Source of the DNA: a plasmid
Length of the DNA: 64,000 nt
Sequence record: NZ_CP090789.1
Reading direction: 5' to 3' (one strand)
Positions 14,149-60,954 of the stretch are shown piece by piece. Both the position numbers and the translations under genes were made by a program. The first letter of the stretch is position 1. Every line of letters starts with the position of its first letter. Below the pieces are notes generated by a model. The model saw nothing but the letters and a program-made list of their open reading frames with translations, ran no database searches and was not told the origin of the DNA.

Positions 14149-16971
14149 TTAATCACGCACGCCTCGGCCACCCCGTCGATTTTCATTGGACTGCTCGCGC
14201 TCGATTTCACCCACGCCGGCGGCCTTCCGCTGCCGCTGCAGATATTCGGCGCGGGCTGCTGCGCGTTCCGCCGCGCTCATGCCTGCGAACGGCTTCTTGT
14301 TGATTCGCACACGATCTGTCTCGGCGCGGTCGGCGCTCGAATGCCGCATATTTTCGACAATCGCTTCCGCTCGCGCTTGCCCGCTCAGCGCGACCAATGC
14401 CTTCCAGGCACGATCGTCCCGGCTTGCGAGGTAAGCGAGACGACCGCGGATTGCCGGATCGATATGCTCGAGCGCGGACCCTGACCGCTTAAGTTGAGCG
14501 CGCTCCTTCGCCTGCAGCGGCCGGTTATCCGCACGTGCGCGCTGCCGCTTGTCGAGCGCGTCGACGTATTGGTCCACGGCGTTATCGAGCGTCACTGGTT
14601 GTCGGCGAACCGGTGACGATGCGGCGCTCGCGGTCCGTCGAAGAGCGAGGGTATGTCGGTAGCCCCGCTCGGCGCCGAGTTCGGTTTCGGGTCGAACACC
14701 GTAATACGCGCTGAACGACTTTTCATCAACACGCGACAACGCGCGACTCAGCGCAGCGGCATCGGCAAACTCGTCCTTCCCGGACGCAAGTGTCAGCGAT
14801 GTCTTGTGCCGCGTCATTGCAACGTAGGCGAGCTCCGCATGCAGACTCTTGGTCGCCAGGATGTACGCACGATCGACAGTCATGCCCTGGCTCTTGTGGA
14901 TCGTCAGCGCGTAGCCGTAGTCGATTTCGCCATACGTCGCAGAGTCGATCGAAATGCTGCGACCGTTATCGAGGCGCACGTGTAGGATCGACCCGGGCTT
15001 CGAGCTTTGCTCTCGAGCCTCGATCCGCTCGATGGTTCCAAGCGAGCCGTTCTTTACGTCGATATCGTAGTCGTTCCGGAGGAACATGATCCGCTCGCCG
15101 GCCGCCAGCATCATGGTACGCGAGTGCTGGCTCTCAGCCTGGTCACTACCATCGACGCGCTCGACCAGCTGAACCGCGTGGTCGCTGCCAAGTTCCCCGC
15201 GCGCACGAAGGGCCGAGCGGATCGCGGTGTTGAGCCCGTCACGTTGAGCATTTGTGTGCGTCAACAAGATCTGCGAATCGCCACGGTATGCGTCCCGGTC
15301 TGCCATGAATTGTGCGACGAGCATGTCGCGCGCAGCAGCGAGCGATTCGAACAATTGGACCGATCCACGTTCCGCATAGGCCGACACCGCGGCCGGAATT
15401 TCATGCCTAGACAATGCCTCGGATGCCTGACGTTGCCAGTCTTCCTTCTGGCGCTTGATCTCGGTTAGGCTCGACAGCGCATTCACGGCTTCGGCCTTCT
15501 TGCTGACGGCGCGGAACGCGTCGCCGGCGTCAACCGCATGCAGCTGATATGCGTCGCCGACCATTCTAATGCGGGCATTGGCCCTTTCGATGTGACCGAG
15601 CAGCTTCTCCATTTGCCGAGAACCGACCATCCCGGCCTCATCGACGAAGACCACCGTTCGCTCGTCAAGTATTAAGCTCCCGCGATCCAGAGAGCCGAGC
15701 AGGCTGTGCAGCGTCCGACTTTGAATGCCGGCATCGCGCTCCATGTCGTCAGCGGTTTTCCCTTGGAGAGCCGCGCCGAGGACGCGGAAGCCATCGGATT
15801 CCAGCGCTTCTCGTGCGGCCTTGAGGACGTAGCTCTTCCCCGTCCCGGCCGCGCCGTTCACGACGACAAACTGCCGATCTGATACGAGAAGAGAAAACGC
15901 CGCATCTTGGCCGGCATTGAAGTTTCGCGAGATCCGCAGAACGTCGTGACGAGCCATGGTCCCGGATCGCGTCGGGACGTTGGAGAGACGCTCGGCGCGT
16001 GCAACGAGCCGATCCTCAAGTTCCTGAAGCTCGCCGGAAGTAAACCAGTCGCCTTCTTTGCCGGGGACGCTCAGCGCGATCAACTCTTTCGAGTTCATCA
16101 TGCGAGCATAAACTTGGCGGAATTGCTCTTCTCCGTCAGTGTTGCGGAAAACGAATTGCTCGACGTCGCGACGCGAGAATATCGACTTGGTCGCCGTTAA
16201 CGCGTGCACACCAATCGACGGATTGATCAGAAGACGTTTGCCGTTGCGTTCGGCCCGCGCGCGATTCTCGGCCAGCACGTTTTCCATTACGCCCCGTTCA
16301 CCGGCGTAGCGGGCGACACCAACCTTGAGCGAAGGCTCAAGTTCGATACCGAGCGTCTTGTAACTCCGATGGTCGATGCGAGCCTCGATGCCGTGTCGTG
16401 CCATGAAGTGATTTGCGGTCACCGCCCATTCCTCGCGGACGTCGACCACGAACTGTCTGCTGCTCAGATAGCGGTCTTTGCCAGCCCCGCCTTTCTCAGG
16501 ATGCTCGCGATTCCAGCGACGAAAGAACTGCTCGGGATCTCGTGGAATCCCGTCGTTCACGCGCTCCGTAAACATGATGTGGGCGTGAGGCTGTTCCAGA
16601 CCATCGCTCGCAGCGGGGTTGTGGATTGCCCAAGAATAGGCGTGGCGTTCACCGAGCGTGTTCTGGACAAACTCCCGAACCAATTCGACGCGCTGCTCAT
16701 CGTTCAATTCGCGCGGGATGGAAACCTCGATCTCGCGGTACGGACGACCGTTGACTCGCTCGTACTGATCGGCAGCTTGCCAGAAAGCGCTCGGATCATG
16801 CTCGGCCCATGCCGGCATGTTTCCGCTCTCAGACATCTTCAGATCGCCGCGTTCCTCGTATCGCCCACCACGCGAGATATAGGCGTAGTGATCCTCACGT
16901 GCGATGTACTTGGCATGCTCGCCTGCCTTGGCAGCTTTGCCTGGTTTGACGCTGAGGTGGTAGGTCGACAC
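14149..16971 (-). CDS. traA: MobQ-family relaxase fused to RecD-like helicase (Ti-plasmid TraA-like)
   Basis: N-terminus MSTYHLSVKPGK...HAKYIAREDHY matches the MobA/MobL relaxase signature (Tyr near N-terminus, HxH block HAHIMF); central Walker A GAAGTGKS helicase. Confidence 0.9.
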   Translation of the reverse strand: MSTYHLSVKPGKAAKAGEHAKYIAREDHYAYISRGGRYEERGDLKMSESGNMPAWAEHDPSAFWQAADQYERVNGRPYREIEVSIPRELNDEQRVELVREFVQNTLGERHAYSWAIHNPAASDGLEQPHAHIMFTERVNDGIPRDPEQFFRRWNREHPEKGGAGKDRYLSSRQFVVDVREEWAVTANHFMARHGIEARIDHRSYKTLGIELEPSLKVGVARYAGERGVMENVLAENRARAERNGKRLLINPSIGVHALTATKSIFSRRDVEQFVFRNTDGEEQFRQVYARMMNSKELIALSVPGKEGDWFTSGELQELEDRLVARAERLSNVPTRSGTMARHDVLRISRNFNAGQDAAFSLLVSDRQFVVVNGAAGTGKSYVLKAAREALESDGFRVLGAALQGKTADDMERDAGIQSRTLHSLLGSLDRGSLILDERTVVFVDEAGMVGSRQMEKLLGHIERANARIRMVGDAYQLHAVDAGDAFRAVSKKAEAVNALSSLTEIKRQKEDWQRQASEALSRHEIPAAVSAYAERGSVQLFESLAAARDMLVAQFMADRDAYRGDSQILLTHTNAQRDGLNTAIRSALRARGELGSDHAVQLVERVDGSDQAESQHSRTMMLAAGERIMFLRNDYDIDVKNGSLGTIERIEAREQSSKPGSILHVRLDNGRSISIDSATYGEIDYGYALTIHKSQGMTVDRAYILATKSLHAELAYVAMTRHKTSLTLASGKDEFADAAALSRALSRVDEKSFSAYYGVRPETELGAERGYRHTLALRRTASAASSPVRRQPVTLDNAVDQYVDALDKRQRARADNRPLQAKERAQLKRSGSALEHIDPAIRGRLAYLASRDDRAWKALVALSGQARAEAIVENMRHSSADRAETDRVRINKKPFAGMSAAERAAARAEYLQRQRKAAGVGEIEREQSNENRRGGRGVRD

Positions 16972-16994: not shown

Positions 16995-17040
16995 TCGGGT
17001 TGTTTCTATGCTAGCATAGAAACGCGTAAGCGCGCGTTGT
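16995..17040 (+). promoter_or_regulatory. oriT: origin of transfer (oriT), MobQ/RSF1010-like: 22-bp perfect inverted repeat plus nic-core
   Basis: GTTTCTATGCTAGCATAGAAAC followed by GCGTAAGCGCGCG; compare RSF1010 GTTTCTCGAAGAGAAACCGGTAAGTGCGCCCT; located directly upstream of the relaxase gene. Confidence 0.7.
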
Positions 17041-17286
17041 ACTTCCCTGTAGACACGGGTTTTTGCGAGCTCCCTAGAGACCTGCGGTTTTGGGGTTTCA
17101 GATCGTGAAATGGGGTTGGATCGCTGGCGCGACGTCGGTATCGTCGGGAGGTGTGTGGTCTCGACGGTGCTGCATCAGGTCCAGTCCTCCATACGGGAGG
17201 GCTGGACTGCGGGCAGTAGCACATCGGACGATTTAGGTGCGGCTGCTGCGGAGTCGAATTCGTTTTTTTTGGGTGAGGTAGAACCT

Positions 17287-17721
17287 ATGTCACGTCCCGA
17301 ATGGTTGGCGGTTCGGTTGCAGTTCATCAAGGGTCTGAATTCTCCGACCGAAGCACAGCGGCTGCTCGTTGAATTGGCTGAGCGGCCCGAACTCGACAAG
17401 TCTGACGCGCGGGTGCTCGACCAGTTGATGCGGATGGAACGTATCAACATGAAGGCCGATGAGGCGAAGGCGGAGACGGAAAAGCTTCTGCGCGCGCGCC
17501 GTCTTGAACAAGATAGGGCGCGCGCGAAGGCACACGCGGAGTTGGGTGCTGTGGTGGCGGGAGTCGGATTTCCGCTGGAGCGGGACTTGTTGGCGGGCGT
17601 GCTGCTCGAAGCGCTCGAACGCCTCAAGGCCGACCCGGCGTTGCGCACGGGTTGGAGTTCGCGCGGCGTGGCACAGGCGAAGCCAAGCGATGCGGAGGAG
17701 AAAAAGGCCGACGCGGCCTAA
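17287..17721 (+). CDS. traD: TraD-like conjugal transfer accessory protein
   Basis: Divergent from relaxase across oriT; C-terminal ELGAVVAGVGFPLERDLLAGVLLEAL resembles the rhizobial TraD motif ELGGLIVKAGL...ALLLGAL; RBS GAGGTAG. Confidence 0.5.
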   Translation: MSRPEWLAVRLQFIKGLNSPTEAQRLLVELAERPELDKSDARVLDQLMRMERINMKADEAKAETEKLLRARRLEQDRARAKAHAELGAVVAGVGFPLERDLLAGVLLEALERLKADPALRTGWSSRGVAQAKPSDAEEKKADAA

Positions 17722-17778: not shown

Positions 17779-19770
17779 TTACTGACCGTCCGGTGCGTCT
17801 GCTGCTTCCGCCTCACGCGTCGGGTGTTCGATCGGGAAAGTCGATTCCCGATTCGTCAGCACATCTGGAAGCCATCCCGATTCAACCAGTTGCATTTCGG
17901 CCGCTGCGGCGGCATCTCCCTTCTTCATCGAACCCAGCGGCATTGCGGCCGTCGCCGAAACCGCCTGTGCCATTACATCGACGATGCGCTGTTTCGACAC
18001 GTGGTTGAGGTAACTCGTCTGCGTCGGCTTCCAGTAGCGCACCATGTCCACGTCGAGCACGTCGGCCAGCGTGTTGACGGCGTGCGGCTTGTTCTCCCGC
18101 GCGATTCCGTTGACCATCGCCGCAACGCAGAAGGCAAACAGGCCCGACAGAGTGTCGTCTGTCGCTTCCAGCAGCCACGGCAGCAAGTGGCGCAGTTCGT
18201 TCGGCATCGTTGCCGCCCATTTCGTGCGCTCGGCGTCGATGATCCGCCATGCCGTACTGTCGGTCATGTCATCCGCAACGCTGGAGAGTTGGTCCAGACT
18301 CGGCCGGAAAGTCGCTTCGAGCGCGTGGTATTCGCGCCAATGATCGTCAAACTGTTCCTCGAACACGTCAGGAATCATCGTGTACAAGAGGTAGGCCATC
18401 GCCACGTCCGGGCGCTTCGCAAGCTCCGCCTGCACAGCAGCAGTGCGATGAGCAGTCAGCCGAACGCAGAGAGTTTCGCTGTGGACGGGGCGGGCTTTCG
18501 TCGTCCGCTCGGCCTGCTCGCCGTGCTGACCACCGGAAACAGCGGCGGCGACTTCCTGCGGTTTGACAACGCCGCGCCTGACTTCAAGTTCGCCATTTGC
18601 GTCGATCCAGACTTGCGCGCCAGCACCGGCTTTTTGCTCGTCGGTCCATACCTCACAACGTTCTTCGAACGCGTCCAGCGCTGCCTGAGCGTCGCGCACG
18701 GCTTGATGGAGCACGTCGCCGTCGGCGTCCGAATCTTCCGTATCGTAGTGCGCGTCGAGCGCAGCATCCGCACTCTGGCACGCCTGTTCCAGCTTGCGAT
18801 GTTCCGCTTTCTCCTTCTTCGTCAGTTCGCGGCGCTCCGGGTCCAACTGGCGCACACGCATCGCCATGAGCGCCTCTCGTCGTACTGCCGCGTCCACCCA
18901 CGCCCAACCCTCGGCGCGCACTTCCTCGGCGGCGGCCGTCAGCTTTTCCACGGCAAGGCGGTTTAGCAATTCGAGGTCGGCCACAAATCCGCCGTTTCCG
19001 TCGCCGCTGAACAGGTCGCGTCGCACATATCCGCCCGCGTCCTCGTAGGCGTCGAGGCCGATGAATCGCGCGAGGGAATTCGTGGCCGCATTCACTTCGG
19101 CTTTGGTGATGACCGCCCGAATCTCGCGGGGGCTGCGCTGCCACTCCTGAATCGATTCGAACCAAATCCGCTCTTGTTGTTCGGTGTCGTCGGACAGTGC
19201 GAGCGCGCACGCCTGCTCGTAATCCATCCCGTCATCACGAAACACTTCTAGCAGCTTCGGCGAAATGTTCGCCAGCTTCAATGCGCGACGGACAACCGTT
19301 TCTGACACGGAAAACCGAGCGGCAATGTCGGGAATTGATCGGCCCTCCGCAATGAGTTCGCGGAACGCGACGCACTGGTCGGCGATGTGCATCCCTTCGC
19401 GCTGGACGTTCTCCGCAAGCGAGATCGCCAGCGCTTCGCCGGCGGAGACGATCAGCACGGGCACGAGATCCGTATCCGACCAGCGGCCTCGGGATTTCAG
19501 GAGGTCCAGTCCGCCCAAGCGGCCTTGGCCGGCGCAGATTCCGAACGGACGAAGGCCGTTCCTTTGTCCATCTTCATCGATCGGATGCCCTACGAGGTTT
19601 TGCAGCAAGCCGTTAGCGTCGATGTCGTCAGCAAGCGCGGGGATGTTCTTGGCGGGCTTCTTCCGCACGTTGCGGGGTGACACGCACAGCTGGCCAAATG
19701 GGATGTAGTTGATTTTCCCGAACGTGTACGGGACGGGGTTGGCGAGGATCGTATCTGCTACTTGGTTCAC
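17779..19770 (-). CDS. ParB-like nuclease-domain protein (664 aa)
   Basis: ParB/Srx N-domain (IPALADDIDANGLLQNLVGHPIDEDG), HTH region, long acidic C-terminal extension; start at GTG 19770 preceded by GGAGAAAAACC. Confidence 0.8.
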   Translation of the reverse strand: MNQVADTILANPVPYTFGKINYIPFGQLCVSPRNVRKKPAKNIPALADDIDANGLLQNLVGHPIDEDGQRNGLRPFGICAGQGRLGGLDLLKSRGRWSDTDLVPVLIVSAGEALAISLAENVQREGMHIADQCVAFRELIAEGRSIPDIAARFSVSETVVRRALKLANISPKLLEVFRDDGMDYEQACALALSDDTEQQERIWFESIQEWQRSPREIRAVITKAEVNAATNSLARFIGLDAYEDAGGYVRRDLFSGDGNGGFVADLELLNRLAVEKLTAAAEEVRAEGWAWVDAAVRREALMAMRVRQLDPERRELTKKEKAEHRKLEQACQSADAALDAHYDTEDSDADGDVLHQAVRDAQAALDAFEERCEVWTDEQKAGAGAQVWIDANGELEVRRGVVKPQEVAAAVSGGQHGEQAERTTKARPVHSETLCVRLTAHRTAAVQAELAKRPDVAMAYLLYTMIPDVFEEQFDDHWREYHALEATFRPSLDQLSSVADDMTDSTAWRIIDAERTKWAATMPNELRHLLPWLLEATDDTLSGLFAFCVAAMVNGIARENKPHAVNTLADVLDVDMVRYWKPTQTSYLNHVSKQRIVDVMAQAVSATAAMPLGSMKKGDAAAAAEMQLVESGWLPDVLTNRESTFPIEHPTREAEAADAPDGQ

Positions 19771-19981
19771 GGTTTTTCTCCGGTTATCGCCTACAGCACA
19801 CCGCCGAGGCATAAAATAATTATAGGACGAAACGTCCTTATAGTGTCGGATTTAAATAAAACCCACAAACCTTTATCGGGTATTCATATTATTTTGCGTA
19901 TAGGGACGAAACGTCCTATAATTACAACCATGCCCTAGCGATTCCGCCGTGGGCGATAACCGGAGAAAAACCGTGAATCAA
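19762..19981. promoter_or_regulatory. divergent promoter/operator region: 30-nt inverted repeat arms (19762-19791 and 19952-19981) flanking two palindromic operators
   Basis: Arms GGCGATAACCGGAGAAAAACCGTGAA(C/T)CAAG carry the RBS and start codon of both divergent genes; operators GGACGAAACGTCC at 19822-19844 and 19900-19920, each overlapping a TATAAT -10. Confidence 0.6.
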
Positions 19982-20392
19982 GTTGAACTGGAAGTGAAGC
20001 GTTACGAGTGGCCCGATCATCAGCGCGCGGCCTTCTTCCCGCATTATCTGAAGCGTCGAGCGGCATGTGCGCAATTGGCCGTCGTGCGCTGGGCCAAAAT
20101 TCTGTTCCCGGCCTATACGACGTCCGGCTGGCACTTTTATGGGCTGGAATCCAAGGGCTTCTATGTCGCTCCGCTGCTGCTGAAGGACGAACAAATCGAA
20201 GTCGGTGGCCACCGCATGAGCGCCGATGCGTTCGGCGTACTGGTTACGCTGGCGGCTCTGGAGGAAATGGGGGAGTCGGAACTGTTCACCGCGTTGCATG
20301 GCTTTGCTTGCCTTCACGATGAGGCACGGGCAATTCTCGGCGGCGGTGAGATCGCCCGCGACGAGATGATTTCGGCAGAAATTCCGTTCTAA
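19973..20392 (+). CDS. ArdB/KlcA-like antirestriction protein candidate (140 aa)
   Basis: Size, and a GWHFYGLESKGFYVAP motif remembered as ArdB/KlcA-like (unverified); position in leading region; GTG start with RBS GGAGAAAAA. Confidence 0.4.
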   Translation: MNQVELEVKRYEWPDHQRAAFFPHYLKRRAACAQLAVVRWAKILFPAYTTSGWHFYGLESKGFYVAPLLLKDEQIEVGGHRMSADAFGVLVTLAALEEMGESELFTALHGFACLHDEARAILGGGEIARDEMISAEIPF

Positions 20393-20433: not shown

Positions 20434-20637
20434 ATGATCTATTCGATTAGCGAAGTAGAGGCCGCGATCAACATCTGGCGGAACCGGCTCGAATCTGGCG
20501 ACGATGCGGCGCTGTGCGCCCCGGCGCGTGCGCTGGCCGAGCCGTACGGGCTGATGGTGTATGAAGGTCGCGAAACGATCAGCGATCATGAGATGACGGC
20601 GAAGGCTCGCGAAGCAATGGCTGTGCTCGTTGCCTGA
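20434..20637 (+). CDS. small conserved hypothetical protein (DUF3717-like)
   Basis: 67-aa ORF with good codon bias; family call is from memory only. Confidence 0.4.
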   Translation: MIYSISEVEAAINIWRNRLESGDDAALCAPARALAEPYGLMVYEGRETISDHEMTAKAREAMAVLVA

Positions 20638-20955: not shown

Positions 20956-21231
20956 ATGACGCAAGATCTACGGGCCACTGTGCGGCCCGAATGTTTGCAA
21001 CCGGCGCGACTGTGGATGGAACCGACGGCGGGTGAAATCCGCCTGGTGCTCGATCGCTGCGGATTCACGCGACGAAACGCAAGCATTTTCCTCGGCATCG
21101 AAGAGACCGGCCGAAGCGTGGGCCGCTGGCTCAGCGGGGAGCACTCGATTCCCTATTCGGCCTGGGCGCTGCTTTGCGCCCGGGCCGGTCTCGGAAACAT
21201 ATGGGAAGAGGGCGGCACCGACGCGTCGTAG
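20956..21231 (+). CDS. small HTH (XRE-like) regulator
   Basis: Predicted helix-turn-helix FTRRNASIFLGIEETGRSVGRWLSG. Confidence 0.4.
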   Translation: MTQDLRATVRPECLQPARLWMEPTAGEIRLVLDRCGFTRRNASIFLGIEETGRSVGRWLSGEHSIPYSAWALLCARAGLGNIWEEGGTDAS

Positions 21232-21366
21232 CGTCGGCTCCGCCCGCGGCTTCTATACCTTCATGTTCGCGTGAGAGGGTTTGTTTTCGATCGCGCCGGC
21301 GCCGATCAGGTCACCGGCCTGGTCGGCGCCGGCGCGATCGAATTACGAGGACGGTGATGCCGGCCT

Positions 21367-22236: not shown

Positions 22237-22707
22237 GTATGCGCTCCACAGTTGGGGGGCGGATAGCGCGTTTCCGTGTGCGGCTCCGAAATGTCGCTAC
22301 CCGGCGCTTGCGAGCGCCGCGCAGGGGTTGCCGGTCAAGGGACCGTGGAATAACGGGGAGGCAGTCCGTAGGAGGGCACCGTTTATGCCGCGAAAGCCCT
22401 TGAAAGAGTGGGCGCGCGCCGGAGCGTGCGGGCCCGTTCTGGCCGGCGAAACCAGCGCGGCGATCGTTTGCGACGGGTAGCGACATCCATTTAGAACCCC
22501 GGGCGCTTTATCTCCTTTCGGGCGTGGTTAGAGCCACTAGCCGAGGCCTGGAGGGGGAGGTTCGGCGTGCGGTTACTCATGAGGGCGGGCCTCGGTTTAT
22601 GGGCCGCCCGATCTGGAGTGCGCCGCGCGCCCGGAAGGGGATAGGCTGCGGGCTGTGACCATCGTCGATGCTCAGGAACAGGCCCCGGCATGGCCGGGGC
22701 TTCGAAA

Positions 22708-24682: not shown

Positions 24683-24702
24683 TGTGCTCCAGGTTGGTTT
24701 TT

Positions 24703-25190
24703 GCTGACCGGGACCCAAGATTCTGAGTCCCCGCGTATTGGGTTCTGTCGAGTCGGCGTGCTGCGCTTCGCAGCTGCCGCCGGTCCCCTTAGTTCGTCGT
24801 CCCGCGAACGGACGAGCGCCGGCCGGCGCCGGGTCAAGGGATCACGCGCGGGGTGGGGCGGGAGGGAGCGCAGCGCACGACACGGCCTCGCGCGCCTTGA
24901 CGCGGCAAAGGCCGGCGCTACGGTCGCGGAACTAGGACGACGAGCTCAGGGGACGGGAAGGTCGGTAGCGGCCGCATGCCGATGAGGCAGAACGCCGCGC
25001 GCGGCGAGCGCGCTATCTGAGGCGCGAAGCGGCTCAGGTGGACATGGGGTGGCCAGCGCCGGGGCGTGCTGCGGGACGCAGCTCGGCCCCTAGAGCGTGG
25101 TGGGGTATCCGGGCCGCGGAGAAAGCGGCTCGCGTGGCAAAGCGATCACGTCGGTTTGGTGCGCGAGCCGGCGCGGCTCGGCTCGATCCG
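24703..25190. repeat. about 488-bp direct repeat copy 1 (5' leader of the DUF3560-MTase gene)
   Basis: About 95% identical to 27985-28473; ends about 20 nt before the start codon of the minus-strand gene. Confidence 0.85.
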
Positions 25191-27948: not shown

Positions 27949-27984
27949 GCTCTTCCTCTCTGGCGTACCGCGCGACGCGGTGTT

Positions 27985-28473
27985 AGCTGCCCGGGCTCCA
28001 AGATTCGGAGTCCCGACGTATTGGGTTCTGTTGAGTCGGCGTGCTGCGCTTCGCAGCTGCCGCCGGTCCCCTTAGTTCGTCGTCCCGCGAACGGACCAGC
28101 GCCGGCCGGCGCCGGGTCAAGGGAACACGCGCGGGGTGGGGCGGGAGGGAGCGCAGCGCACGACACGGCCCCGCGCGCCTTGACGCGGCAAAGGCCGGCG
28201 CTACGGTCGCGGAACTAGGACGACGAGCTCAGGGGACGAGAAGGTCGGTAGCGGCCGCATGCCGATGAGGCAGAACGCCGCGCGCGGCGAGCGCGCTATC
28301 TGAGGCGCGGAGCGGCTCAGGTGGACATGGGGTGGCCAGCGCCGGGGCGGGCTGCGGAACGCAGCGCGGCCCCTAGAGCGTGGTGGGACATCCGGGCCGC
28401 GGAGAAAGCGGCTCGCGTGGCAAATCGATTACGTCGGTTTGGTGCGCGAGCCGTCGCGGTCCGGCTGGATCCA
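27985..28473. repeat. about 488-bp direct repeat copy 2 (5' leader of the 196-aa/DndC-like operon)
   Basis: About 95% identical to 24703-25190; begins about 37 nt upstream of the start codon. Confidence 0.85.
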
Positions 28474-50380: not shown

Positions 50381-51115
50381 CGATAGCTATCCGATAGCTT
50401 ATGCCGCAATAGCCGGAGCCCACGACAAGCCCGAACGCTCGCGTCTCAGCGAGATTGATAGACGATATCGGATAGCTATCTGATAGCATCGTCGCGCCAT
50501 TAAGGACCGGTTCCGTTGAAGCAGTCACCGGCGGGTCACCGCCCTGTCATGGCGACCTCAGTAGTTGTGCAAGGGCATTCCGCCGCTTTAGGCGGTATCG
50601 GATAGCTAGCTAGTAGCCACCTGATAGCGCAGGTCAGATCTCTGCGTCTTTACGATGCGCCGAAGCGGGCTTACCCGTACCGCCCCAATAAAAGCTATCG
50701 GATAGCTATCTGATAGTAGCGGTAGCGTACCCCGTGACTGCGTCCGGTCCCGTAGTCACGGCAGAGTCACGGTCTCCGTGACTCCATTGTCACGCGTAAG
50801 GCAAACGACGTGACTGGGCCGTAGCGTCAAAGGACGGGTCTCCGCTTACCTTGATATCCGCTAGCTATCTGATAGCCGAGATCTCCAAACAAGATAGCTG
50901 ATAGCTATCCGATAGCATCAGCGCTTGAAAAACAATCATCGGTCACCGCTCGGCCAGCTTGCGGCTATCCGATAGCTACCTGATATCATTCCGATACATG
51001 GCCCGCGCGGTATTGGAAGCTATTCAATGCAGGCTCGGTTCGAAGTATGCGCCATGGTATCCGATAGCTATCGGATACCTATTGTCTCCCTTTATCGGGT
51101 AGCTATCCGATAGCT
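50381..51115. repeat. parS: centromere-like array: at least 9 copies of the GATAGCTATC(C/T)GATAGC-type palindromic repeat upstream of parA
   Basis: Copies at about 50381, 50467, 50597, 50694, 50853, 50893, 50963, 51057 (perfect 24-bp palindrome GGTATCCGATAGCTATCGGATACC) and 51095. Confidence 0.7.
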
Positions 51116-51142
51116 TACGTTTGATGCACGGAGGTACAACTG

Positions 51143-52276: not shown

Positions 52277-52330
52277 TCTGATAGCTAGCTGATAGCTAGC
52301 TGATAGCTATCCGATAGCCATCGGATACTA
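52277..52330. repeat. second cluster of GATAGC-type centromere repeats downstream of parG
   Basis: CTGATAGCTAGCTGATAGCTAGCTGATAGCTATCCGATAGCCATCGGATAC. Confidence 0.6.
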
Positions 52331-53459: not shown

Positions 53460-54680
53460 ATGGGATCACCAAAAGCAGCTTCGACCGCGAGCTCAAACGC
53501 GGTATCCACTGAGCTTCGCAAGCATGTCGCGACGGTCCACGTAGGGGGTGACCTCGGGCTCCTTGATCGCAAGCTGGTGAACGTCTTGGCCTTGAACGCT
53601 TACGACGAACTACTTACCAAGAAGACACATTCAATCCCAGTCAGAATCATGAGCGAAATGCTCGGATTCGATAGCAAAAATACCGACGCGCTGAAGAAGG
53701 CGCTCAAGAAGATCACGACTACGCCGATCGAGTTTGACTTGCTGCACGCGAGTGGCGAGAGTGACTGGGACGTGTCGACGTTGCTAAGCCACGCAGGTAT
53801 TAAGAACGGGGTTTGTACCTACGAGTACAGCAATTGGCTGGCAAACAAGCTAGCCAATCCGGACATCTACTTGCTGATCAACATCAACGTGCAGAAGCAG
53901 TTCAACGGTGCATATGCCCTCGCGCTGTATGAGAATTGTCTGCGCTTCAAGCGCACCGGATCTACGGGTTGGATTTCCGTGGAAATGTGGCGGAAGCTGC
54001 TTGGCGCAGAGGCAAGCACCTACGACGAGTTCAAGCATTTCAATGGCGAAGTGATCAAGAAGGCGGTGAAGGAGGTCAATACCGTTTCCAATATCATTGT
54101 GACGCCTGAATATAGGCGCGCCAACCGACGCGTAACAGACATCAGATTTCTGATAGAGGAGAACCCTCAAGCGTCCGTCTACGACGGGAACGATGACACT
54201 GAGCACGCGGCGATCCGGTCTTCGGAGACATACCGGCGCCTTCGCGATCTCGGCATCGCGGATCGCCTCGCGACGCTATGGATCCAGCAAGAGCCAGACC
54301 GAGCCGCAAGGGCTGTTGACTACGTCGAGGACAAACGCCGCCGTAACCAGATTAAGGGCAACGCTGCGGGCTATCTACGAACTGTTTTCGAAGGCGGTAG
54401 TAGCCTAGAGGTTGATTCGGCGCCGCCACGCGAAAAGGCAGGGCAGCCCGCCGTCGCCAGTAAAGAGCGTGAGACTGAAGCGGAGCAACGGGCGGCAGCA
54501 ATCTCCGCCGCGATCAGAGCCCTTACGACAGAGGAGCGGCATGCATACGTGATGCAGTACGTTGCTGATGGTGGGAAGGCAACGTCCTACTTGGAAGCGA
54601 ACGCCACGTTTCGGAATGTGCTGGAGCGCACCGCGTACACATCGTGGTTGCGAGCGAAGATCGGGGCGACCCTCGGGTGA
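53460..54680 (+). CDS. repA: iteron-type plasmid replication initiator RepA
   Basis: 406 aa; located directly downstream of the iteron array; winged-helix Rep-like composition. Confidence 0.75.
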   Translation: MGSPKAASTASSNAVSTELRKHVATVHVGGDLGLLDRKLVNVLALNAYDELLTKKTHSIPVRIMSEMLGFDSKNTDALKKALKKITTTPIEFDLLHASGESDWDVSTLLSHAGIKNGVCTYEYSNWLANKLANPDIYLLININVQKQFNGAYALALYENCLRFKRTGSTGWISVEMWRKLLGAEASTYDEFKHFNGEVIKKAVKEVNTVSNIIVTPEYRRANRRVTDIRFLIEENPQASVYDGNDDTEHAAIRSSETYRRLRDLGIADRLATLWIQQEPDRAARAVDYVEDKRRRNQIKGNAAGYLRTVFEGGSSLEVDSAPPREKAGQPAVASKERETEAEQRAAAISAAIRALTTEERHAYVMQYVADGGKATSYLEANATFRNVLERTAYTSWLRAKIGATLG

Positions 54681-58726: not shown

Positions 58727-60369
58727 TGGGCGCAAGCACTTTGTCACGAGTAACGGTCGCAGTGACGGTCCTATCGACCGTCCTTTCTGGCTGCGGCTTG
58801 CAGCAGATCACACATTTACAGGAATCGATCGCCGACGAAGCGAAGGATCAGGCGGCGTCCAAACCGGCAGCGCGCACGGTCGTGCGGGTTCACGGTTCTT
58901 CGTGGTTGATGGGGGAAGAGATCCGCGCAAGCAAGCCGCAGCCAGCGATCTACGAGACCGACATCGTCTTTAATCGTCCCGTTAGATCGCTTCAGGACGT
59001 CGCTGATTGGATCAGCAGCCGCGTTGGCGTGCGAGCGGTTGTCGACCAGTCCGCGCTTACTGTGACGCCGGCGGTTCCTATATCGACTAGCCCAGCGAAC
59101 TCTGCTGCGTCGGGCATTATGCCGCCGCTGCCCCCTGGCATGCCGATTGGTGGGGCGCCTATTACGCCGATGACCGGTACGGCAACCGGCCCGCTGGATG
59201 GAGGGCGCGAGTTCCGATACAGGGGCCCTTTGAAAGGTCTGTTGGACCGGGTCGCAACTGCATACGGAGTGTGGTTCAACTACCGCGATGGCGTCGTGAC
59301 GTTCTATCGAACCGAGACCCGGACTTTCGACGTGTCGAGCCTCAATGAGGGTTCGACTATGAATGGCTCGATAACGACACAGGATTCCTCTGCCGTCGGT
59401 GGATCCAACACCCTCGCGACGTCGAGCGTGGGAGGTTCAAGTAGCGGCCAGACGATGACGCTGTCGGCGTCCGTGAAGCCGTGGGATACCATCGAAGCGA
59501 CCGCGAAATCGATCGCGGGTCCGGGCGCAGAGGTTCACTCTGACCGAGAACTCGGCGTTATCACCGTAACCGGAACGCCACCGCAATGTGATCGGCTCGA
59601 TCGCTGGATCAAAGACCTCAACGCTCGATTCTCAAAGCAGATCGCGATCGACGTCCACGTATACGAAGTGCATCGCGCCGAGAACGAGAACTACGGCGCC
59701 AATCTTGCACTCGCTTACAAGCCAGGCAGCGGGCACACTGGTATCAGCTTTACTGGCGCGTCGGTTCCGAAGGTATCTGGCGCTGCATCGGCCATGTCCC
59801 TCGGCGCTACGATTCTCAGTGGGCCGCTCGCTGGGTCAAACGCAGCGATCCAAGCGCTCTCTTCCCTGGGCAATGTATCTCAGGTTGTGCAGCGGTCTGG
59901 TGTCACGCTGAATGGTAAGACGTTGAATCTTCAGGCCTCGACCAATCAAGACTACGTCAATCAAACACAGAGCACCCTAGCAGCGAACGTCGGAGCGACG
60001 AGCGGCACTCAAACTGCAACAGTGACGCCTGGATTCACGGGCGCGTTTCTGCCGAGTTTTAAGGACGGAAAAATCTACGTGGTATTCGACATGACGATGT
60101 CGAACCTCACAGCACTCGAGCCATATCCACCGAACCCGAAAGAGAACCAGGCAGCCGTGCAGCTGCGCACGCTACAACAGTCTCGATTCCAGCAATCCAT
60201 CTCGTTGAAATCGGGCGAGTCGCTCGTGATCACCGGGATGTACCAACAAACCGCCAGCGTCAACAAGAACGGCGTCGGGGCGCCCTCGTTTCCGTTGCTA
60301 GGAGGGGGCGTCGACGCGCAAAAGAAGGACACGATTCTCGCGATCGTTATCTCCGCACGACTCCTGTGA
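58726..60369 (+). CDS. pilN: PilN-family lipoprotein secretin (type IVb pilus outer-membrane channel)
   Basis: Lipobox LSGCG; C-terminal secretin domain (...SGESLVITGMYQQ...GVGAPSFPLLGG...ILAIVISARL). Confidence 0.8.
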   Translation: MGASTLSRVTVAVTVLSTVLSGCGLQQITHLQESIADEAKDQAASKPAARTVVRVHGSSWLMGEEIRASKPQPAIYETDIVFNRPVRSLQDVADWISSRVGVRAVVDQSALTVTPAVPISTSPANSAASGIMPPLPPGMPIGGAPITPMTGTATGPLDGGREFRYRGPLKGLLDRVATAYGVWFNYRDGVVTFYRTETRTFDVSSLNEGSTMNGSITTQDSSAVGGSNTLATSSVGGSSSGQTMTLSASVKPWDTIEATAKSIAGPGAEVHSDRELGVITVTGTPPQCDRLDRWIKDLNARFSKQIAIDVHVYEVHRAENENYGANLALAYKPGSGHTGISFTGASVPKVSGAASAMSLGATILSGPLAGSNAAIQALSSLGNVSQVVQRSGVTLNGKTLNLQASTNQDYVNQTQSTLAANVGATSGTQTATVTPGFTGAFLPSFKDGKIYVVFDMTMSNLTALEPYPPNPKENQAAVQLRTLQQSRFQQSISLKSGESLVITGMYQQTASVNKNGVGAPSFPLLGGGVDAQKKDTILAIVISARLL

Positions 60370-60953
60370 GGCCGACGATGAAATTCGCTCAAAGCTTTGC
60401 CATGCCAATCTTCGCAATCGTCGCGAGCCTTTCAGCTCATGCCGGCCCCGCTGCGGCCCCTATCGCGCCGTCGACAGTTGTGAAGCCTGCAGCGCAACCA
60501 GATGCGCAAATGCCAGGCGCGATCAAGGGTGGACAACCGCTAGATGTAGCCGAGTCAGATGGGGCGCGACTTGCGTCGATCCAGAGGCGGATTCCGATCC
60601 TTGAAGCCGAGAAGCGCATCGCCGAGCTCGAGAAAGCTATACGCGACGCCAACGCCTCTACTGGACTCACCGCTATCCCGGCCGGCGTGCCGGCGCCTGT
60701 GGGCGGGCCTCCTGGCTTCAATCGTGTTCCATCGAATCCGCCTATGGAACTCGATAGTGGCTTTGTGGAAGTCAAAGGCATCGACTCATACAACGGGAAG
60801 TTTTGCGCCACGCTGGCGGCCGCAGGCCGCGTCGACGATGTGCATGTGGGAGACACGTTCGCCGGATGGCGTGTGGTGAAAATCACGGCCGCGGACGTCA
60901 CGGTTACTCGGCGACGAGCTGGGAAAACCGAAACTCGCGTGGTGAGGCTTTAA
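60366..60953 (+). CDS. pilus assembly protein, PilO-like N-terminal part
   Basis: Signal peptide, coiled-coil; the next ORF starts 1 nt after its stop in the +1 frame. Confidence 0.4.
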   Translation: MRPTMKFAQSFAMPIFAIVASLSAHAGPAAAPIAPSTVVKPAAQPDAQMPGAIKGGQPLDVAESDGARLASIQRRIPILEAEKRIAELEKAIRDANASTGLTAIPAGVPAPVGGPPGFNRVPSNPPMELDSGFVEVKGIDSYNGKFCATLAAAGRVDDVHVGDTFAGWRVVKITAADVTVTRRRAGKTETRVVRL

Positions 60954-60954
60954 C

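What the first reader, a model, noticed from the sequence alone, without database searches (positions are those of the whole stretch)
19762..19981. Mirror-image divergent promoter: 30-nt inverted repeat includes RBS and start codon of both genes, enclosing two palindromic operators
The arms GGCGATAACCGGAGAAAAACCGTGAAyCAAG differ at one position. Both the ParB-like gene and the ArdB-like gene therefore begin with the same leader and the first four codons V-N-Q-V. Between the arms lie two 13-bp perfect palindromes (GGACGAAACGTCC), each overlapping a TATAAT. In ssDNA the arms would pair into a 30-bp stem that closes a 160-nt loop. This is a possible shared repressor or translational control site, or an ssDNA priming structure.
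Basis: seen in the sequence. Interest (0 to 1): 0.6.

Follow-up and report, generated by a model that had tools for sequence, protein, structure and literature searches.

The report
Back-to-back KorC-repressed plasmid promoter cassettes
The mirror-image repeat is real: it is two copies, placed back to back, of a widespread plasmid promoter-plus-leader module shut off by a small repressor (KorC), most likely so that an anti-restriction operon and a HerB-like gene fire briefly when the plasmid enters a new cell; this is a known kind of switch in an unusual mirrored layout.

Summary
Arms 19760-19797 and 19946-19983 are 92% complementary. They carry the same ribosome-binding site and GTG start for a ParB-like gene (leftward) and a KlcA/ArdB gene (rightward), and they enclose two operator-like palindromes next to TATAAT boxes.

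The arms are two copies of a modular cassette: a 17-bp 7-3-7 operator overlapping the -10, then a 5'-terminal hairpin, then AACCGGAGAAAAACCG and the start codon.

The same cassette stands in direct orientation before klcA, kleA and a third gene in IncP-1 plasmid pEST4011, each with a TAGGGCAnnnTGCCCTA palindrome. BLAST finds it in 1,166 plasmids.

The small protein at 20956-21231, at the end of the rightward gene row, is a KorC homologue (48% identity) with an XRE-type helix-turn-helix fold.

Mirrored pairs occur in six Burkholderiaceae lineages. Their operators differ, but the leader is nearly invariant.

The best reading is a KorC-type repressed divergent promoter that gives transient expression after conjugative entry.

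The cassette works in direct orientation. The arms differ inside their local hairpins. The -35 would not pair in a single-strand fold. A single-stranded-DNA promoter or priming role is therefore poorly supported.

This is a new member of a known kind, of moderate interest.

The parts
19760..19983 (.). The whole mirror region: two back-to-back promoter-leader cassettes forming a nested imperfect palindrome.
   Evidence: Inverted repeats I1 and I2. The 26-mer arm occurs twice against 0 expected. It is an AT-rich island. It is conserved in L001-L005, L010, L013-L016.
17779..19770 (-). Leftward gene: a ParB-like protein of 663 aa with a GTG start. It is a full-length homologue of the F-plasmid leading-region protein HerB/YfjB.
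   Evidence: ORF list. RefSeq start in pINT23. Weak ParB HTH Pfam match. Match to Spo0J 1vz0 at 9e-09. 31% identity over 636 aa to F ParB/YfjB, E 2e-65.
19768..19785 (-). Left leader core AACCGGAGAAAAACCGTG: SD GGAG, a 7-nt spacer and the GTG start.
   Evidence: It is matched by covariance model R1 at 75.9 bits.
19789..19810 (-). Left 5'-UTR hairpin GCCUCGGC-GGUGU-GCUGuAGGC. It begins about 2-3 nt after the predicted transcription start.
   Evidence: RNA fold of -11.6 kcal/mol, ending 3 nt before AACCGGAG. Covariation across cassettes.
19819..19824 (-). Left promoter -10 TATAAT, read on the minus strand.
   Evidence: Read from sequence. Conserved in the alignment. The strict consensus scan did not call it because the -35 is weak.
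19823..19839 (.). Left operator TAGGACGAAACGTCCTT, a KorC-type 7-3-7 palindrome. It overlaps the -10 by 2 bp.
   Evidence: It has the same layout as TAGGGCAnnnTGCCCTA in pEST4011 and Caballeronia.
19842..19849 (-). Weak left -35 candidates: GACACT with a 17-bp spacer, or CCGACA with a 19-bp spacer.
   Evidence: Read from sequence. B. multivorans relatives have the better TTCCCA at 17 bp.
19850..19893 (.). Central AT-rich spacer in the UP-element position for both promoters. It holds a partial inverted repeat, AAAACCC 19858-19864 and GGGTATT 19878-19884.
   Evidence: Conserved columns CC..A.A / TCGG.TAT in alignment A1. Its function is unknown.
19894..19899 (+). Right promoter -35 TTGCGT, 17 bp from the -10.
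   Evidence: Read from sequence. The geometry matches kleA of pEST4011: -35, 2 nt, then the 17-bp operator overlapping the -10.
19902..19918 (.). Right operator AGGGACGAAACGTCCTA, a KorC-type 7-3-7 palindrome.
   Evidence: The core is invariant in all six close relatives.
19917..19922 (+). Right promoter -10 TATAAT.
19932..19954 (+). Right 5'-UTR hairpin GCCC-ua-GCG-auuc-CGC-cgu-GGGC.
   Evidence: RNA fold of -10.9 kcal/mol. Covariation.
19958..19975 (+). Right leader core AACCGGAGAAAAACCGTG.
   Evidence: Model R1 scores it at 70.0 bits.
19973..20392 (+). KlcA/ArdB-family antirestriction gene, 139 aa, GTG start.
   Evidence: Pfam PF03230 at 6.1e-10. PDB KlcA 2kmg at 2.3e-11. RefSeq annotation in relatives.
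20434..20637 (+). DUF3717 gene, second in the rightward gene row. It is not universal among the lineages.
   Evidence: Pfam PF12512 at 2.1e-21. Distribution across loci.
20956..21231 (+). KorC homologue, an XRE-type helix-turn-helix protein. It is the proposed repressor of both promoters.
   Evidence: tblastn gives 48% identity to annotated KorC genes of IncP-1 plasmids, among 3,078 plasmids with a match. It is present in every annotated lineage. The AF2 model has pLDDT 85.5 and its best structural matches are the Aca1/Aca2/C-protein repressors.
21286..21342 (.). A 25-nt-arm GC hairpin after korC, between convergent genes. It is a probable bidirectional terminator.
   Evidence: I3. Rfam reports only a sub-threshold miRNA-type match there.
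17001..17045 (+). Candidate oriT: the perfect palindrome GTTTCTATGCTAGCATAGAAAC followed by GCGTAAGCGCGCGTT, a MOBQ nick-region-like sequence. It sets the plus strand as the transferred strand and the leading region to the right.
   Evidence: Sequence. MobA_MobL/RecD-type relaxase on the left and TraD on the right. MOBQ oriT consensus NWACCNNTAAGTGCGCCCTYNN, quoted in PMC3832669. The assignment is an inference, matching 9 of 12 in the core.

Best explanation
The region is a pair of sigma-70 promoters placed back to back. Each is one copy of a portable cassette found on many plasmids.

Each cassette has these parts in order:
- a -35 box;
- a 17-bp palindromic operator (7-3-7) that fills the spacer and overlaps the first two bases of the -10;
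- TATAAT;
- a short hairpin at the very 5' end of the transcript;
- the leader AACCGGAGAAAAACCG;
- the start codon.

The rightward cassette drives klcA/ardB, then DUF3717, and probably korC. The leftward cassette drives a HerB-like ParB-family gene.

Proposed mechanism:
- In an established host, a dimer of the KorC homologue encoded at 20956-21231 sits on both operators and blocks RNA polymerase at the -10. Both operons are then nearly silent.
- The plasmid enters a recipient as the single-stranded T-strand, and this region lies about 2.7 kb from the inferred nick site. Once that strand is made double-stranded, no KorC is present and both promoters fire.
- The 5'-terminal hairpin and the conserved leader give stable, well-translated messages.
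- Newly made KorC then shuts the system off. This is zygotic induction with negative feedback.

The 30-38-nt inverted repeat exists because both cassettes descend from the same module. The copies stay alike through common selection on the leader and through occasional sequence exchange between them.

What is shown here: the anatomy, the homologies and the conservation. What is inferred: KorC binding, repression, the transcription start sites, operon continuity as far as korC, and the timing after transfer.
For: 1. Anatomy. The operators abut and overlap TATAAT on both sides, and the right promoter reads TTGCGT-17 bp-TATAAT. The geometry is the same as at kleA of IncP-1 pEST4011: TTGACA, 2 nt, then TAGGGCATTTTGCCCTA overlapping TATCAT.

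2. The cassette is homologous to those in IncP-1.
- pEST4011 has TAGGGCATTTTGCCCTA plus a -10, a UTR hairpin and AACCGGAG before klcA, kleA and a third gene.
- That cassette matches 1,166 plasmids by blastn, before klcA, kleA, antirestriction, DUF905 and other genes.
- Caballeronia pSBC2-6 has a mirrored ParB/ArdB pair with two TAGGGCACTTTGCCCTA sites.

3. The repressor.
- The protein at 20956-21231 is 48% identical to annotated KorC.
- A homologue is present in every annotated lineage, at 44-98% identity.
- The model is an XRE-type helix-turn-helix, closest to the Aca1/Aca2 and C-protein autorepressors.
- The operator occurs only in this intergenic region of the 64-kb window, which fits local autoregulation.

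4. Operators diverge while the layout is kept: TAGGACG, TAGGGCA, ACGGTCA/TAGGACA, ACGGCCT, TAGGTCT. This is as expected if repressor and operator co-evolve.

5. Modularity. The same leader is fused to KlcA, the HerB-like ParB, an 81-aa protein in B. multivorans and a 208-aa protein in pKJ006.

6. The leader is far more conserved than the genes. KlcA proteins are only 32-36% identical between lineages, while AACCGGAGAAA(A/T)(A/C)CCG is nearly invariant.

7. The local UTR hairpin.
- Every genuine cassette folds into a hairpin that ends 3 nt before AACCGGAG, with at least 14 different stem sequences.
- 6 of 8 pairs show changes on both sides. The covariation score is 0.261, against at most 0.085 for slid partners, and 0 of 500 shuffles reach it.

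8. Precedent. klcA is the most strongly zygotically induced RP4 gene, about 120-220-fold, attributed there to KorA/KorC repression (PMC7314908). In RA3, klcAp and orf02p are KorC-controlled and the gene order is klcA-orf04-korC (PMC7783346).
Against: - No binding, repression or transcription-start data exist for this locus.
- The half-site differs from the IncP-1 palindrome (TAGGACG against TAGGGCA), so recognition by this KorC homologue is inferred from layout and co-occurrence only.
- A 318-bp GC-rich gap separates DUF3717 from korC. korC may therefore have its own promoter, as in RA3, rather than being strictly autoregulated.
- The left -35 is poor, and the strict promoter scan called neither promoter.
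- The KorA and KorB operators that accompany the KorC-type palindrome at the pEST4011 klcA promoter are absent here.
- The near-invariance of AACC...AAAAACCG exceeds what a 4-nt Shine-Dalgarno sequence needs. Some function of the leader is therefore unexplained.
- The two operator centres are direct rather than mirrored. This is also unexplained.
Confidence: 0.75

Rival explanations
1. Single-stranded-DNA promoter that works like Frpo. When the transferred plus strand enters the recipient, the 224-nt palindrome folds into a hairpin that rebuilds a duplex operator and -10. RNA polymerase then transcribes the HerB-like gene from the T-strand before the complementary strand is made. This could act in addition to the double-stranded promoters.
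For: - The plus strand folds at -63.1 kcal/mol, z = -11.
- The region lies about 2.7 kb from the inferred nick site, on the leading side.
- The leftward gene points toward oriT, so it is T-strand-templated, like herB in F.
- In F, herB is reported to be driven by the single-stranded promoter Frpo2 (PMC13370423).
- The mirrored arrangement, with the non-KlcA gene always pointing toward the relaxase where one is visible, is kept in several lineages.
- The plus strand folds more stably than the minus strand in 5 of 7 loci.
Against: - The cassette is equally conserved in direct orientation, where no hairpin can form: three copies in pEST4011 and the third copy in L013.
- In the fold, the -35 hexamer has 1 of 6 bases paired. 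In L013 the -35 regions fall in the loop. Frpo candidates are defined by paired -35 and -10 elements (PMC11541004).
- The arms differ by many transversions inside the UTR hairpins, while each keeps its own local pairing.
- Transitions between arms show no consistent G.T bias toward one strand: 3 against 6, 3 against 5, 7-9 against 2-3, 4 against 0, 1 against 4, 1 against 1 and 3 against 1.
- There is no similarity to the F leading region, which holds Frpo1 and Frpo2.
- klcA itself is on the wrong strand for T-strand transcription.
Confidence: 0.1
2. Shared post-transcriptional control site. The identical leaders are recognised by one trans-acting factor, either an RNA-binding protein or a small RNA. 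Alternatively, the small CGG/CCG helix that partly covers the Shine-Dalgarno sequence gates translation, so the two operons are co-regulated at translation as well as at transcription.
For: - The leader AACCGGAGAAA(A/T)(A/C)CCG is nearly invariant across lineages whose KlcA proteins share only 32-36% identity. This is more than a GGAG Shine-Dalgarno sequence requires.
- A 3-4-bp helix pairing CGG(A) of the Shine-Dalgarno region with (U)CCG just before the start codon is predicted in nearly all genuine cassettes, including IncP-1 ones whose loops differ in sequence and length.
- That helix is paired in 97.8% of cells.
Against: - The small helix never varies, so there is no covariation evidence for it.
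- No candidate factor or small RNA was identified.
- There is no Rfam match.
- The pattern is also explained by selection for an efficient initiation region plus a 5' stabilising hairpin.
Confidence: 0.2
3. A single-strand initiation (ssi) structure that primes complementary-strand DNA synthesis in the recipient.
For: It is a long hairpin on the leading part of the inferred T-strand.
Against: - Every segment of the palindrome is accounted for by promoter, operator, UTR and RBS elements that are homologous to non-palindromic cassettes elsewhere.
- There is no similarity to the F leading region.
- The same plasmid carries other, GC-rich hairpin repeats that are better candidates for such roles.
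Confidence: 0.03
4. A neutral relic of an inverted duplication, or a chance repeat with no function of its own.
For: The arms are homologous copies. The extension of identity into the first four codons in this lineage looks like sequence exchange rather than selection.
Against: - The mirrored pair is kept in six lineages whose flanking genes have diverged to 32-59% protein identity.
- The start codon changes to ATG in both arms in Caballeronia.
- Shuffles give 0 expected copies of the arm.
Confidence: 0.03

Closest known systems
KorC-regulated klcA / kleA / kleC promoters of IncP-1 plasmids (RK2/RP4, pEST4011) and klcAp / orf02p of IncU plasmid RA3
   Same: - A KorC homologue is encoded downstream of a klcA-family gene.
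- A 17-bp 7-3-7 palindrome overlaps the -10.
- The -35 / 2 nt / operator geometry is the same.
- The 5'-UTR is the same: a terminal hairpin followed by AACCGGAG.
- Several copies of the cassette sit on one replicon.
- The expected behaviour is strong repression at steady state and a burst after transfer.

   Different: - The half-site is TAGGACG instead of TAGGGCA.
- No KorA or KorB operators are present.
- The two cassettes are mirrored back to back rather than direct.
- The second cassette drives a HerB-like ParB-family gene.
- The host replicon is a Burkholderia plasmid with a MOBQ (Ti TraA-like) relaxase, not IncP or IncU.
- klcA points away from oriT here, whereas RP4 klcA is T-strand-templated.
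Frpo / ssi single-stranded-DNA promoters of F and ColIb-P9 leading regions
   Same: - Both lie in the leading region, upstream of T-strand-templated establishment genes. F herB is a homologue of the leftward gene here.
- Both have a long hairpin potential.
- Both give expression in new transconjugants but not in donors.
   Different: - Here, canonical double-stranded promoters with repressor operators are present.
- The -35 would not be duplex in the fold.
- There is no sequence similarity.
- The cassette also functions in direct orientation elsewhere.
- Silencing in donors would come from a repressor, not from loss of the hairpin.
Aca (anti-CRISPR-associated) and C-protein (restriction-modification controller) autorepressor circuits
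   Same: A small XRE-type helix-turn-helix dimer, encoded in the same operon as an anti-defence or defence gene, binds a palindrome at a strong promoter. It allows an early burst and then shuts the promoter off. These are the best structural matches to the KorC-homologue model.
   Different: - There is no detectable sequence relationship beyond the fold.
- Those circuits are found in phages and restriction-modification systems.
- They control a single promoter rather than a mirrored pair.
ArdK / CUP-element control of leading-region genes in IncN pKM101 and IncW R388 (from my own knowledge, not checked here)
   Same: Repeated promoter-containing elements stand upstream of several leading-region genes, including ardB, and are repressed by a plasmid-encoded regulator.
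   Different: Homology was not tested here. The repressor family and the repeat sequence are different as far as I recall.

Membership tests
KorC-type repressible promoter cassette (IncP-1 / IncU klcA-kleA type) | A KorC-family repressor is encoded on the same replicon, downstream of the klcA-family gene. | tested here: met
   The protein at 20956-21231 is 48% identical to annotated KorC of pEST4011 and a Hydrogenophaga plasmid. Homologues are present in every annotated lineage. The model is an XRE helix-turn-helix with pLDDT 85.5.
KorC-type repressible promoter cassette (IncP-1 / IncU klcA-kleA type) | A 17-bp palindromic operator (7-3-7) lies in the -35/-10 spacer and overlaps the -10. | tested here: met
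   19823-19839 and 19902-19918 overlap TATAAT by 2 bp. Position and length match TAGGGCATTTTGCCCTA in pEST4011 and in Caballeronia.
KorC-type repressible promoter cassette (IncP-1 / IncU klcA-kleA type) | The operator sequence is the IncP-1-type palindrome TAGGGCA-N3-TGCCCTA. | tested here: not met
   The half-site here is TAGGACG, which differs at positions 5 and 7. The shared positions are TAGG..C. This is a diverged-specificity variant, consistent with 48% repressor identity.
KorC-type repressible promoter cassette (IncP-1 / IncU klcA-kleA type) | It controls a KlcA/ArdB-family antirestriction gene. | tested here: met
   PF03230 at 6.1e-10. KlcA structure 2kmg at 2.3e-11.
KorC-type repressible promoter cassette (IncP-1 / IncU klcA-kleA type) | It has the conserved transcribed leader: a 5' hairpin, 3 nt, then AACCGGAG... 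and the start codon. | tested here: met
   Model R1 scores both arms at 70-76 bits and the pEST4011 copies at 50-59 bits. Covariation is seen in 6 of 8 stem pairs.
KorC-type repressible promoter cassette (IncP-1 / IncU klcA-kleA type) | There is co-regulation through KorA and/or KorB operators at the same promoter. | tested here: not met
   No TTTAGCSGCTAAA site was found, and the only GTTTAGCTAAAC-like site is at chance level and elsewhere in the window.
KorC-type repressible promoter cassette (IncP-1 / IncU klcA-kleA type) | The repressor binds the operator and represses transcription, with derepression in new transconjugants. | not testable with these tools
   This needs EMSA or footprinting, reporter assays and mating time courses.
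Frpo / ssi single-stranded-DNA promoter | It lies on the T-strand of the leading region, upstream of a T-strand-templated gene. | tested here: met
   This is met by inference. The MOBQ-like oriT at 17001-17045 places the nick on the plus strand. The leftward gene points toward oriT, as F herB does.
Frpo / ssi single-stranded-DNA promoter | The single strand folds so that both the -35 and the -10 are rebuilt as duplex. | tested here: not met
   The -10 and the operator half-sites pair, but only 1 of 6 bases of the -35 hexamer pairs. In L013 the -35 regions lie in the loop.
Frpo / ssi single-stranded-DNA promoter | It shows sequence similarity to known Frpo or ssi elements. | tested here: not met
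   blastn of 19740-20000 against F 52000-67500, the F leading region said to carry Frpo1 and Frpo2, gave only chance 10-16-nt matches.
Frpo / ssi single-stranded-DNA promoter | The promoter is inactive once the DNA is double-stranded. | not testable with these tools
   By sequence, the double-stranded form carries consensus -10 boxes with operators. This argues for activity in double-stranded DNA unless repressed.

The most novel reading that the evidence does not exclude
The mirrored layout may be functional and not merely historical. On the incoming T-strand, the two cassettes would pair into a 224-nt hairpin that rebuilds one operator and -10 duplex. The HerB-like gene (in other lineages, other small leading genes) could then be transcribed from single-stranded DNA before complementary-strand synthesis. 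This would be a repressor-gated single-stranded-DNA promoter unrelated to Frpo.

A second, less dramatic reading is also open. The hairpin-plus-AACCGGAGAAAAACCG leader, shared by more than a thousand plasmids, could be an undescribed cis-regulatory RNA element that sets the burst size of zygotically induced anti-defence genes.
Probability: 0.1. Interest if true: 0.75.

Novelty: new member of a known kind. Interest (0 to 1): 0.35.

Why it matters
- It shows how a Burkholderia conjugative plasmid probably times two establishment functions, a KlcA-type antirestriction protein and a HerB-like host-reprogramming ParB protein. Both would be controlled by one repressor acting at one compact control region.
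- It shows that the KorC promoter-leader module known from IncP and IncU plasmids is a portable unit that has been fused to many different leading-region genes.
- It gives a contrast with F. The homologous herB gene is reported to be driven by a single-stranded promoter in F, but by a repressor-controlled double-stranded promoter here. These are two routes to the same transient expression.
- The very high conservation of the 5'-UTR suggests an unstudied element that affects mRNA stability or translation, and this can be tested directly.
- The series of diverged operator and repressor pairs (TAGGACG, TAGGGCA, ACGGTCA, ACGGCCT, TAGGTCT) is a natural set for studying DNA-recognition specificity, or for building orthogonal switches.

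Tried and rejected
- Protein-based search of one genome per species with the KlcA-like protein found no relative.
- The exact operator-plus-(-10) 19-mer hit only four unrelated MAG contigs, three of them Vampirovibrionales. These were not used.
- The word-indexed protein search found only 3 clusters for the KlcA-like protein and 3 for KorC. Relatives were instead reached through the plasmid BLAST collection and an exact leader pattern in metagenomes.
- Rfam gave no relevant match in 15-32 kb, only sub-threshold miRNA-type hits on simple hairpins.
- Pfam and NCBIfam gave no significant family for the small regulators, only weak HTH_31 matches.
- I looked for a plasmid-wide regulon of the operator. 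There is none in the window.
- The weak R1 hit at 53628-53683 has no cassette features.
- I tested for a strand bias of G.T wobble between the arms as a signature of single-strand folding. An early impression of bias from fold energies did not hold when transitions were counted. Any such bias would also be confounded by the general G+T skew of the plus strand.
- A literature search for the IncP-1 KorC operator sequence and for the leader string found nothing usable. The DUF3717 search found no paper. That TAGGGCAnnnTGCCCTA is the KorC operator therefore rests on my own recollection, on its position before klcA and kleA next to an annotated korC gene in pEST4011, and on papers stating which promoters KorC controls.
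- Rhizobium locus L017 has a single cassette-like leader and no mirrored partner.

Full report
**1. The observation**

- The repeat finder gives arms 19760-19797 / 19946-19983 (38 nt, 92% complementary). A nested pair lies at 19817-19842 / 19899-19924 (26 nt, 85%).
- The 26-mer GGCGATAACCGGAGAAAAACCGTGAA occurs exactly once on each strand. None is expected in shuffles.
- GGACGAAACGTCC occurs exactly twice in 64 kb. Looser matches are at chance level and lie in GC-rich sequence.
- The 200-bp intergenic region is an AT-rich island, GC 0.42-0.45 against about 0.6-0.65 in the flanks.

Three details need correction.
- The 13-mer is a 5+5 inverted repeat around a non-palindromic AAA. Both AAA centres lie on the plus strand, so the two copies are direct repeats (D1). 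In relatives the unit is a 17-bp 7-3-7 palindrome.
- The shared first four codons are peculiar to this lineage.
- A single strand would fold as one long nested hairpin (-63.1 kcal/mol, z = -11), not as a stem closing a large open loop.

**2. The start codons**

- RefSeq annotation of the close relative pINT23 places the ParB-like and antirestriction gene starts at the positions equivalent to 19770 and 19973.
- In three B. multivorans plasmids the leftward gene is an unrelated 81-aa ORF. Homology of the left arm stops at GTGA, at the module/gene junction.
- In Caballeronia pSBC2-6 both arms carry ATG instead of GTG at that position.
- GGAG lies 7 nt upstream in every copy.

**3. The genes**

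- The rightward gene is a KlcA/ArdB antirestriction protein (PF03230 at 6.1e-10; KlcA structure 2kmg at 2.3e-11).
- It is followed by a DUF3717 gene and, after a 318-bp gap, by the 91-aa ORF at 20956-21231.
- The leftward 663-aa protein has a ParB N-terminal/HTH region. It is a full-length homologue of the F-plasmid leading-region protein annotated as ParB at 59538-61496 (31% identity over 636 residues, E 2e-65).
- That F protein is YfjB/HerB. A 2026 preprint describes it as zygotically induced from the single-stranded promoter Frpo2 (PMC13370423).

**4. Plasmid context**

- The window is a Burkholderia plasmid related to pINT23 and pB1701.
- A relaxase with MobA_MobL and RecD-like helicase domains (14149-16971, minus strand) and a TraD gene (17287-17721, plus strand) diverge from a perfect 22-bp palindrome at 17001-17022. 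This palindrome is followed on the plus strand by GCGTAAGCGCGCGTT.
- That sequence resembles the MOBQ nick-region consensus ...TAAGTGCGCCCT quoted in PMC3832669, matching 9 of 12.
- From what is established for RSF1010-type origins (my own knowledge), the inverted repeat lies 5' of the nick and enters last.
- I therefore infer that the plus strand is transferred, that the leading region runs rightward, and that the mirror region lies about 2.7 kb from the nick.
- Most genes to the right lie on the minus strand. This is the T-strand-templated orientation that typifies leading regions (PMC11541004). The klcA-DUF3717-korC row is the exception.

**5. Related loci**

Mirrored pairs with the same leader occur in six lineages:
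- this plasmid, pB1701 and pINT23;
- three B. multivorans plasmids;
- Paraburkholderia sabiae pPs24235_1, with 74-nt arms;
- Burkholderia sp. pKJ006;
- Caballeronia pSBC2-6, with 26-nt arms at 100%;
- two soil metagenome contigs, with 45-nt arms.

The partner of klcA is the HerB-like gene in four lineages and other genes in two. KlcA proteins are only 32-36% identical between lineages, and the HerB-like proteins 48-59%. Yet the core AACCGGAGAAA(A/T)(A/C)CCG plus the start codon is almost invariant.

Positions just 5' of the core differ between lineages but agree between the two arms of a lineage: GGCGAT, GGCGCT, GGCAAT, GGCCGAT, GGTCACT, GGTCCTT.

The operators differ between lineages but keep a 7-3-7 layout abutting the -10: TAGGACG-AAA-CGTCCTA here, TAGGGCA-CTT-TGCCCTA in Caballeronia, ACGGTCA-TTA-TGTCCTA in the metagenome contigs, ACGGCCT-TTA-AGGCCGT in pKJ006, and TAGGTCT-TTA-TGTCCTT in P. 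sabiae.

**6. The link to a known system**

- A tblastn search of the 91-aa protein finds genes annotated KorC in IncP-1 plasmids at 48% identity. In all, 3,078 plasmids carry a relative.
- A homologue lies at the end of the klcA gene row in every annotated lineage.
- Its AlphaFold model (pLDDT 85.5) is an XRE-type helix-turn-helix. Its best structural matches are Aca1, Aca2, C-proteins and antitoxin repressors.
- In IncP-1 plasmid pEST4011 the klcA, kleA and one further gene are each preceded by TAGGGCATTTTGCCCTA overlapping the -10. A short GC hairpin and AACAACCGGAG / AATAACCGGAG then follow before the ATG.
- At kleA the geometry is TTGACA, 2 nt, then the 17-bp operator overlapping TATCAT. 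That is exactly the geometry of TTGCGT, AT, AGGGACGAAACGTCCTA and TATAAT here.
- The Caballeronia mirror region uses the same half-sites as pEST4011.
- The pEST4011 cassette matches 1,166 plasmids by blastn, in front of klcA, kleA, antirestriction, DUF905 and hypothetical genes.

Each arm of the finding is therefore one copy of a widespread KorC-type promoter-leader cassette, and the finding is two such cassettes back to back.

**7. What is selected in the arms**

- Folding each 5'-UTR on its own gives, in every genuine cassette, a hairpin that ends exactly 3 nt before AACCGGAG. At least 14 different stem sequences are seen.
- A covariance model built from 22 cassettes recovers all copies at 31-76 bits. 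It also finds a third, direct-orientation copy in contig L013.
- On the model alignment, 6 of 8 stem pairs show changes on both sides. The covariation score is 0.261, against at most 0.085 when partners are slid, and 0 of 500 shuffles reach it. The alignment is fitted to the structure, which flatters these numbers somewhat.
- With the -10 ending at 19922 (plus strand) and 19819 (minus strand), the predicted starts fall 2-3 nt before the hairpins.
- From established work on 5'-terminal stem-loops as mRNA stabilisers in E. coli (my own knowledge), I infer that this is a stabilising 5' hairpin followed by an efficient initiation region.
- A second small helix, CGG(A) with (U)CCG, partly covers the Shine-Dalgarno sequence in nearly all copies but never varies, so it is neither supported nor refuted.

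**8. Local hairpins versus arm-to-arm pairing**

- Within the window the two UTR hairpins differ (GCCTCGGCGGTGTGCTGTAGGC against GCCCTAGCGATTCCGCCGTGGGC). Each still folds locally at about -11 kcal/mol.
- Differences between arms include many transversions. The transitions show no consistent direction that would give G.T pairs on one strand.
- Direct-orientation copies are as alike as mirrored ones: three in pEST4011 and the third copy in L013.
- In this lineage the identity runs into the first four codons. The left gene's GTGAACCAAGTAG resembles the KlcA N-terminus of the B. multivorans plasmids. This looks like sequence exchange between the copies.
- The long inverted repeat is therefore best explained by common descent, common selection on the leader and occasional conversion, not by selection for pairing.

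**9. Mechanism proposed**

- At steady state, KorC-homologue dimers occupy 19823-19839 and 19902-19918 and block both -10 boxes.
- After transfer and second-strand synthesis in a repressor-free recipient, both promoters fire. They produce KlcA and the HerB-like protein from stable, well-translated messages.
- KorC then accumulates and closes the system.
- The precedent is direct. klcA is the most strongly zygotically induced gene of RP4, about 120-220-fold, which is attributed to KorA/KorC repression (PMC7314908). In RA3, klcAp and orf02p are KorC-controlled and the gene order is klcA-orf04-korC (PMC7783346).
- The anatomy and the homology are shown here. Binding, repression, transcription starts, operon continuity across the 318-bp gap and the timing are inferred.

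**10. The single-stranded-DNA rival**

It is attractive for three reasons: F herB is reported to use Frpo2, the homologous gene here is T-strand-templated, and the plus strand folds strongly.

Against it:
- The -35 hexamer would have 1 of 6 bases paired in the fold.
- In L013 the -35 regions are in the loop.
- There is no similarity to the F leading region.
- The cassette does not need a mirrored partner elsewhere.
- klcA is on the wrong strand.

I give it about 0.1 as an additional function.

The same leading region carries other long GC-rich hairpins upstream of minus-strand genes. One type is repeated in this window and is present in 251 plasmids. These are better candidates for single-strand functions.

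**11. Unexplained points**

- The operator centres are direct rather than mirrored, both here (AAA/AAA) and in Caballeronia (CTT/CTT).
- A conserved partial inverted repeat lies in the central spacer, AAAACCC 19858-19864 and GGGTATT 19878-19884. In B. multivorans it reads AATATCC-N13-GGATATT. It could be a second operator.
- The leader is conserved beyond what a GGAG Shine-Dalgarno sequence needs.

**12. Verdict**

The feature is real, conserved and functional-looking. It is a member of the KorC-regulated promoter family in a mirrored arrangement with a diverged operator. Novelty: new member of a known kind. Interest: 0.35.

Noticed in passing
window 24696-24995 and 27979-28278 (hairpins 24780-24957 and 28066-28237); also 22291-22486: Long GC-rich hairpins lie just upstream of minus-strand (T-strand-templated) leading-region genes: the DNA methylase, the DUF3560-methyltransferase gene and a 196-aa ORF.
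- Two of them sit in a 300-nt direct repeat (96% identity).
- The plus-strand single-stranded folds are -75.8 and -69.9 kcal/mol (z about -6).
- All contain CCCTTGAC on the sense strand.
- The 300-nt unit matches 251 plasmids, 223 of them conjugative, from Burkholderia, Pseudomonas, Citrobacter, Enterobacter, Klebsiella, Ralstonia and others. Up to 14 places occur per plasmid, and all are unannotated.
- They show no similarity to the F leading region.
They may be a family of single-stranded-DNA promoters or another leading-region element.
   Followed up: partly
window 17779-19770 (-): The ParB-like gene is a full-length homologue of F-plasmid YfjB/HerB (31% identity over 636 aa, E 2e-65). HerB was recently described as a zygotically induced host-reprogramming protein. 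Here it sits behind a repressor-controlled promoter rather than an Frpo element.
   Followed up: yes
window 17001-17045: Candidate oriT: the perfect 22-bp palindrome GTTTCTATGCTAGCATAGAAAC followed by GCGTAAGCGCGCGTT, which resembles the MOBQ nick region. It lies between the MobA_MobL/RecD relaxase gene and traD.
   Followed up: partly
window 19825-19837 and 19904-19916; L016 3842-3858 and 3950-3966: The central triplets of the two operators are in direct orientation on one strand (AAA/AAA here, CTT/CTT in Caballeronia), although everything around them is mirrored. No explanation was found. Conversion between the palindromic operators in direct register is one possibility.
   Followed up: no
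window 19858-19884; alignment A1 columns about 125-155: A conserved partial inverted repeat lies in the spacer between the two promoters. It reads AAAACCC-N13-GGGTATT here and AATATCC-N13-GGATATT in B. multivorans. It may be a second operator or an UP-element-related sequence.
   Followed up: no
window 50382-51116 and 52286-52327: A dense cluster of direct and inverted copies of about 22 nt, GCTATCGGATAGCTATCTGATA. It looks like iterons or a centromere array.
   Followed up: no
window 21286-21342: A near-perfect 25-nt-arm GC hairpin lies between korC and a convergent small gene. It is a probable bidirectional terminator. Rfam reports only a sub-threshold plant-miRNA match there.
   Followed up: no
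L013 2790-2863: A soil metagenome contig carries three KorC-type cassettes: the mirrored klcA/herB pair and a third, direct copy in front of a DUF932-like gene. All three have near-identical operator and hairpin, which shows that the cassette spreads within one element.
   Followed up: yes
L006, L008, L009 (Vampirovibrionales MAG contigs): The exact 19-mer GGACGAAACGTCCTATAAT occurs in three different Vampirovibrionales genome bins. The loci were not examined, so this may be chance or an unrelated conserved sequence.
   Followed up: no
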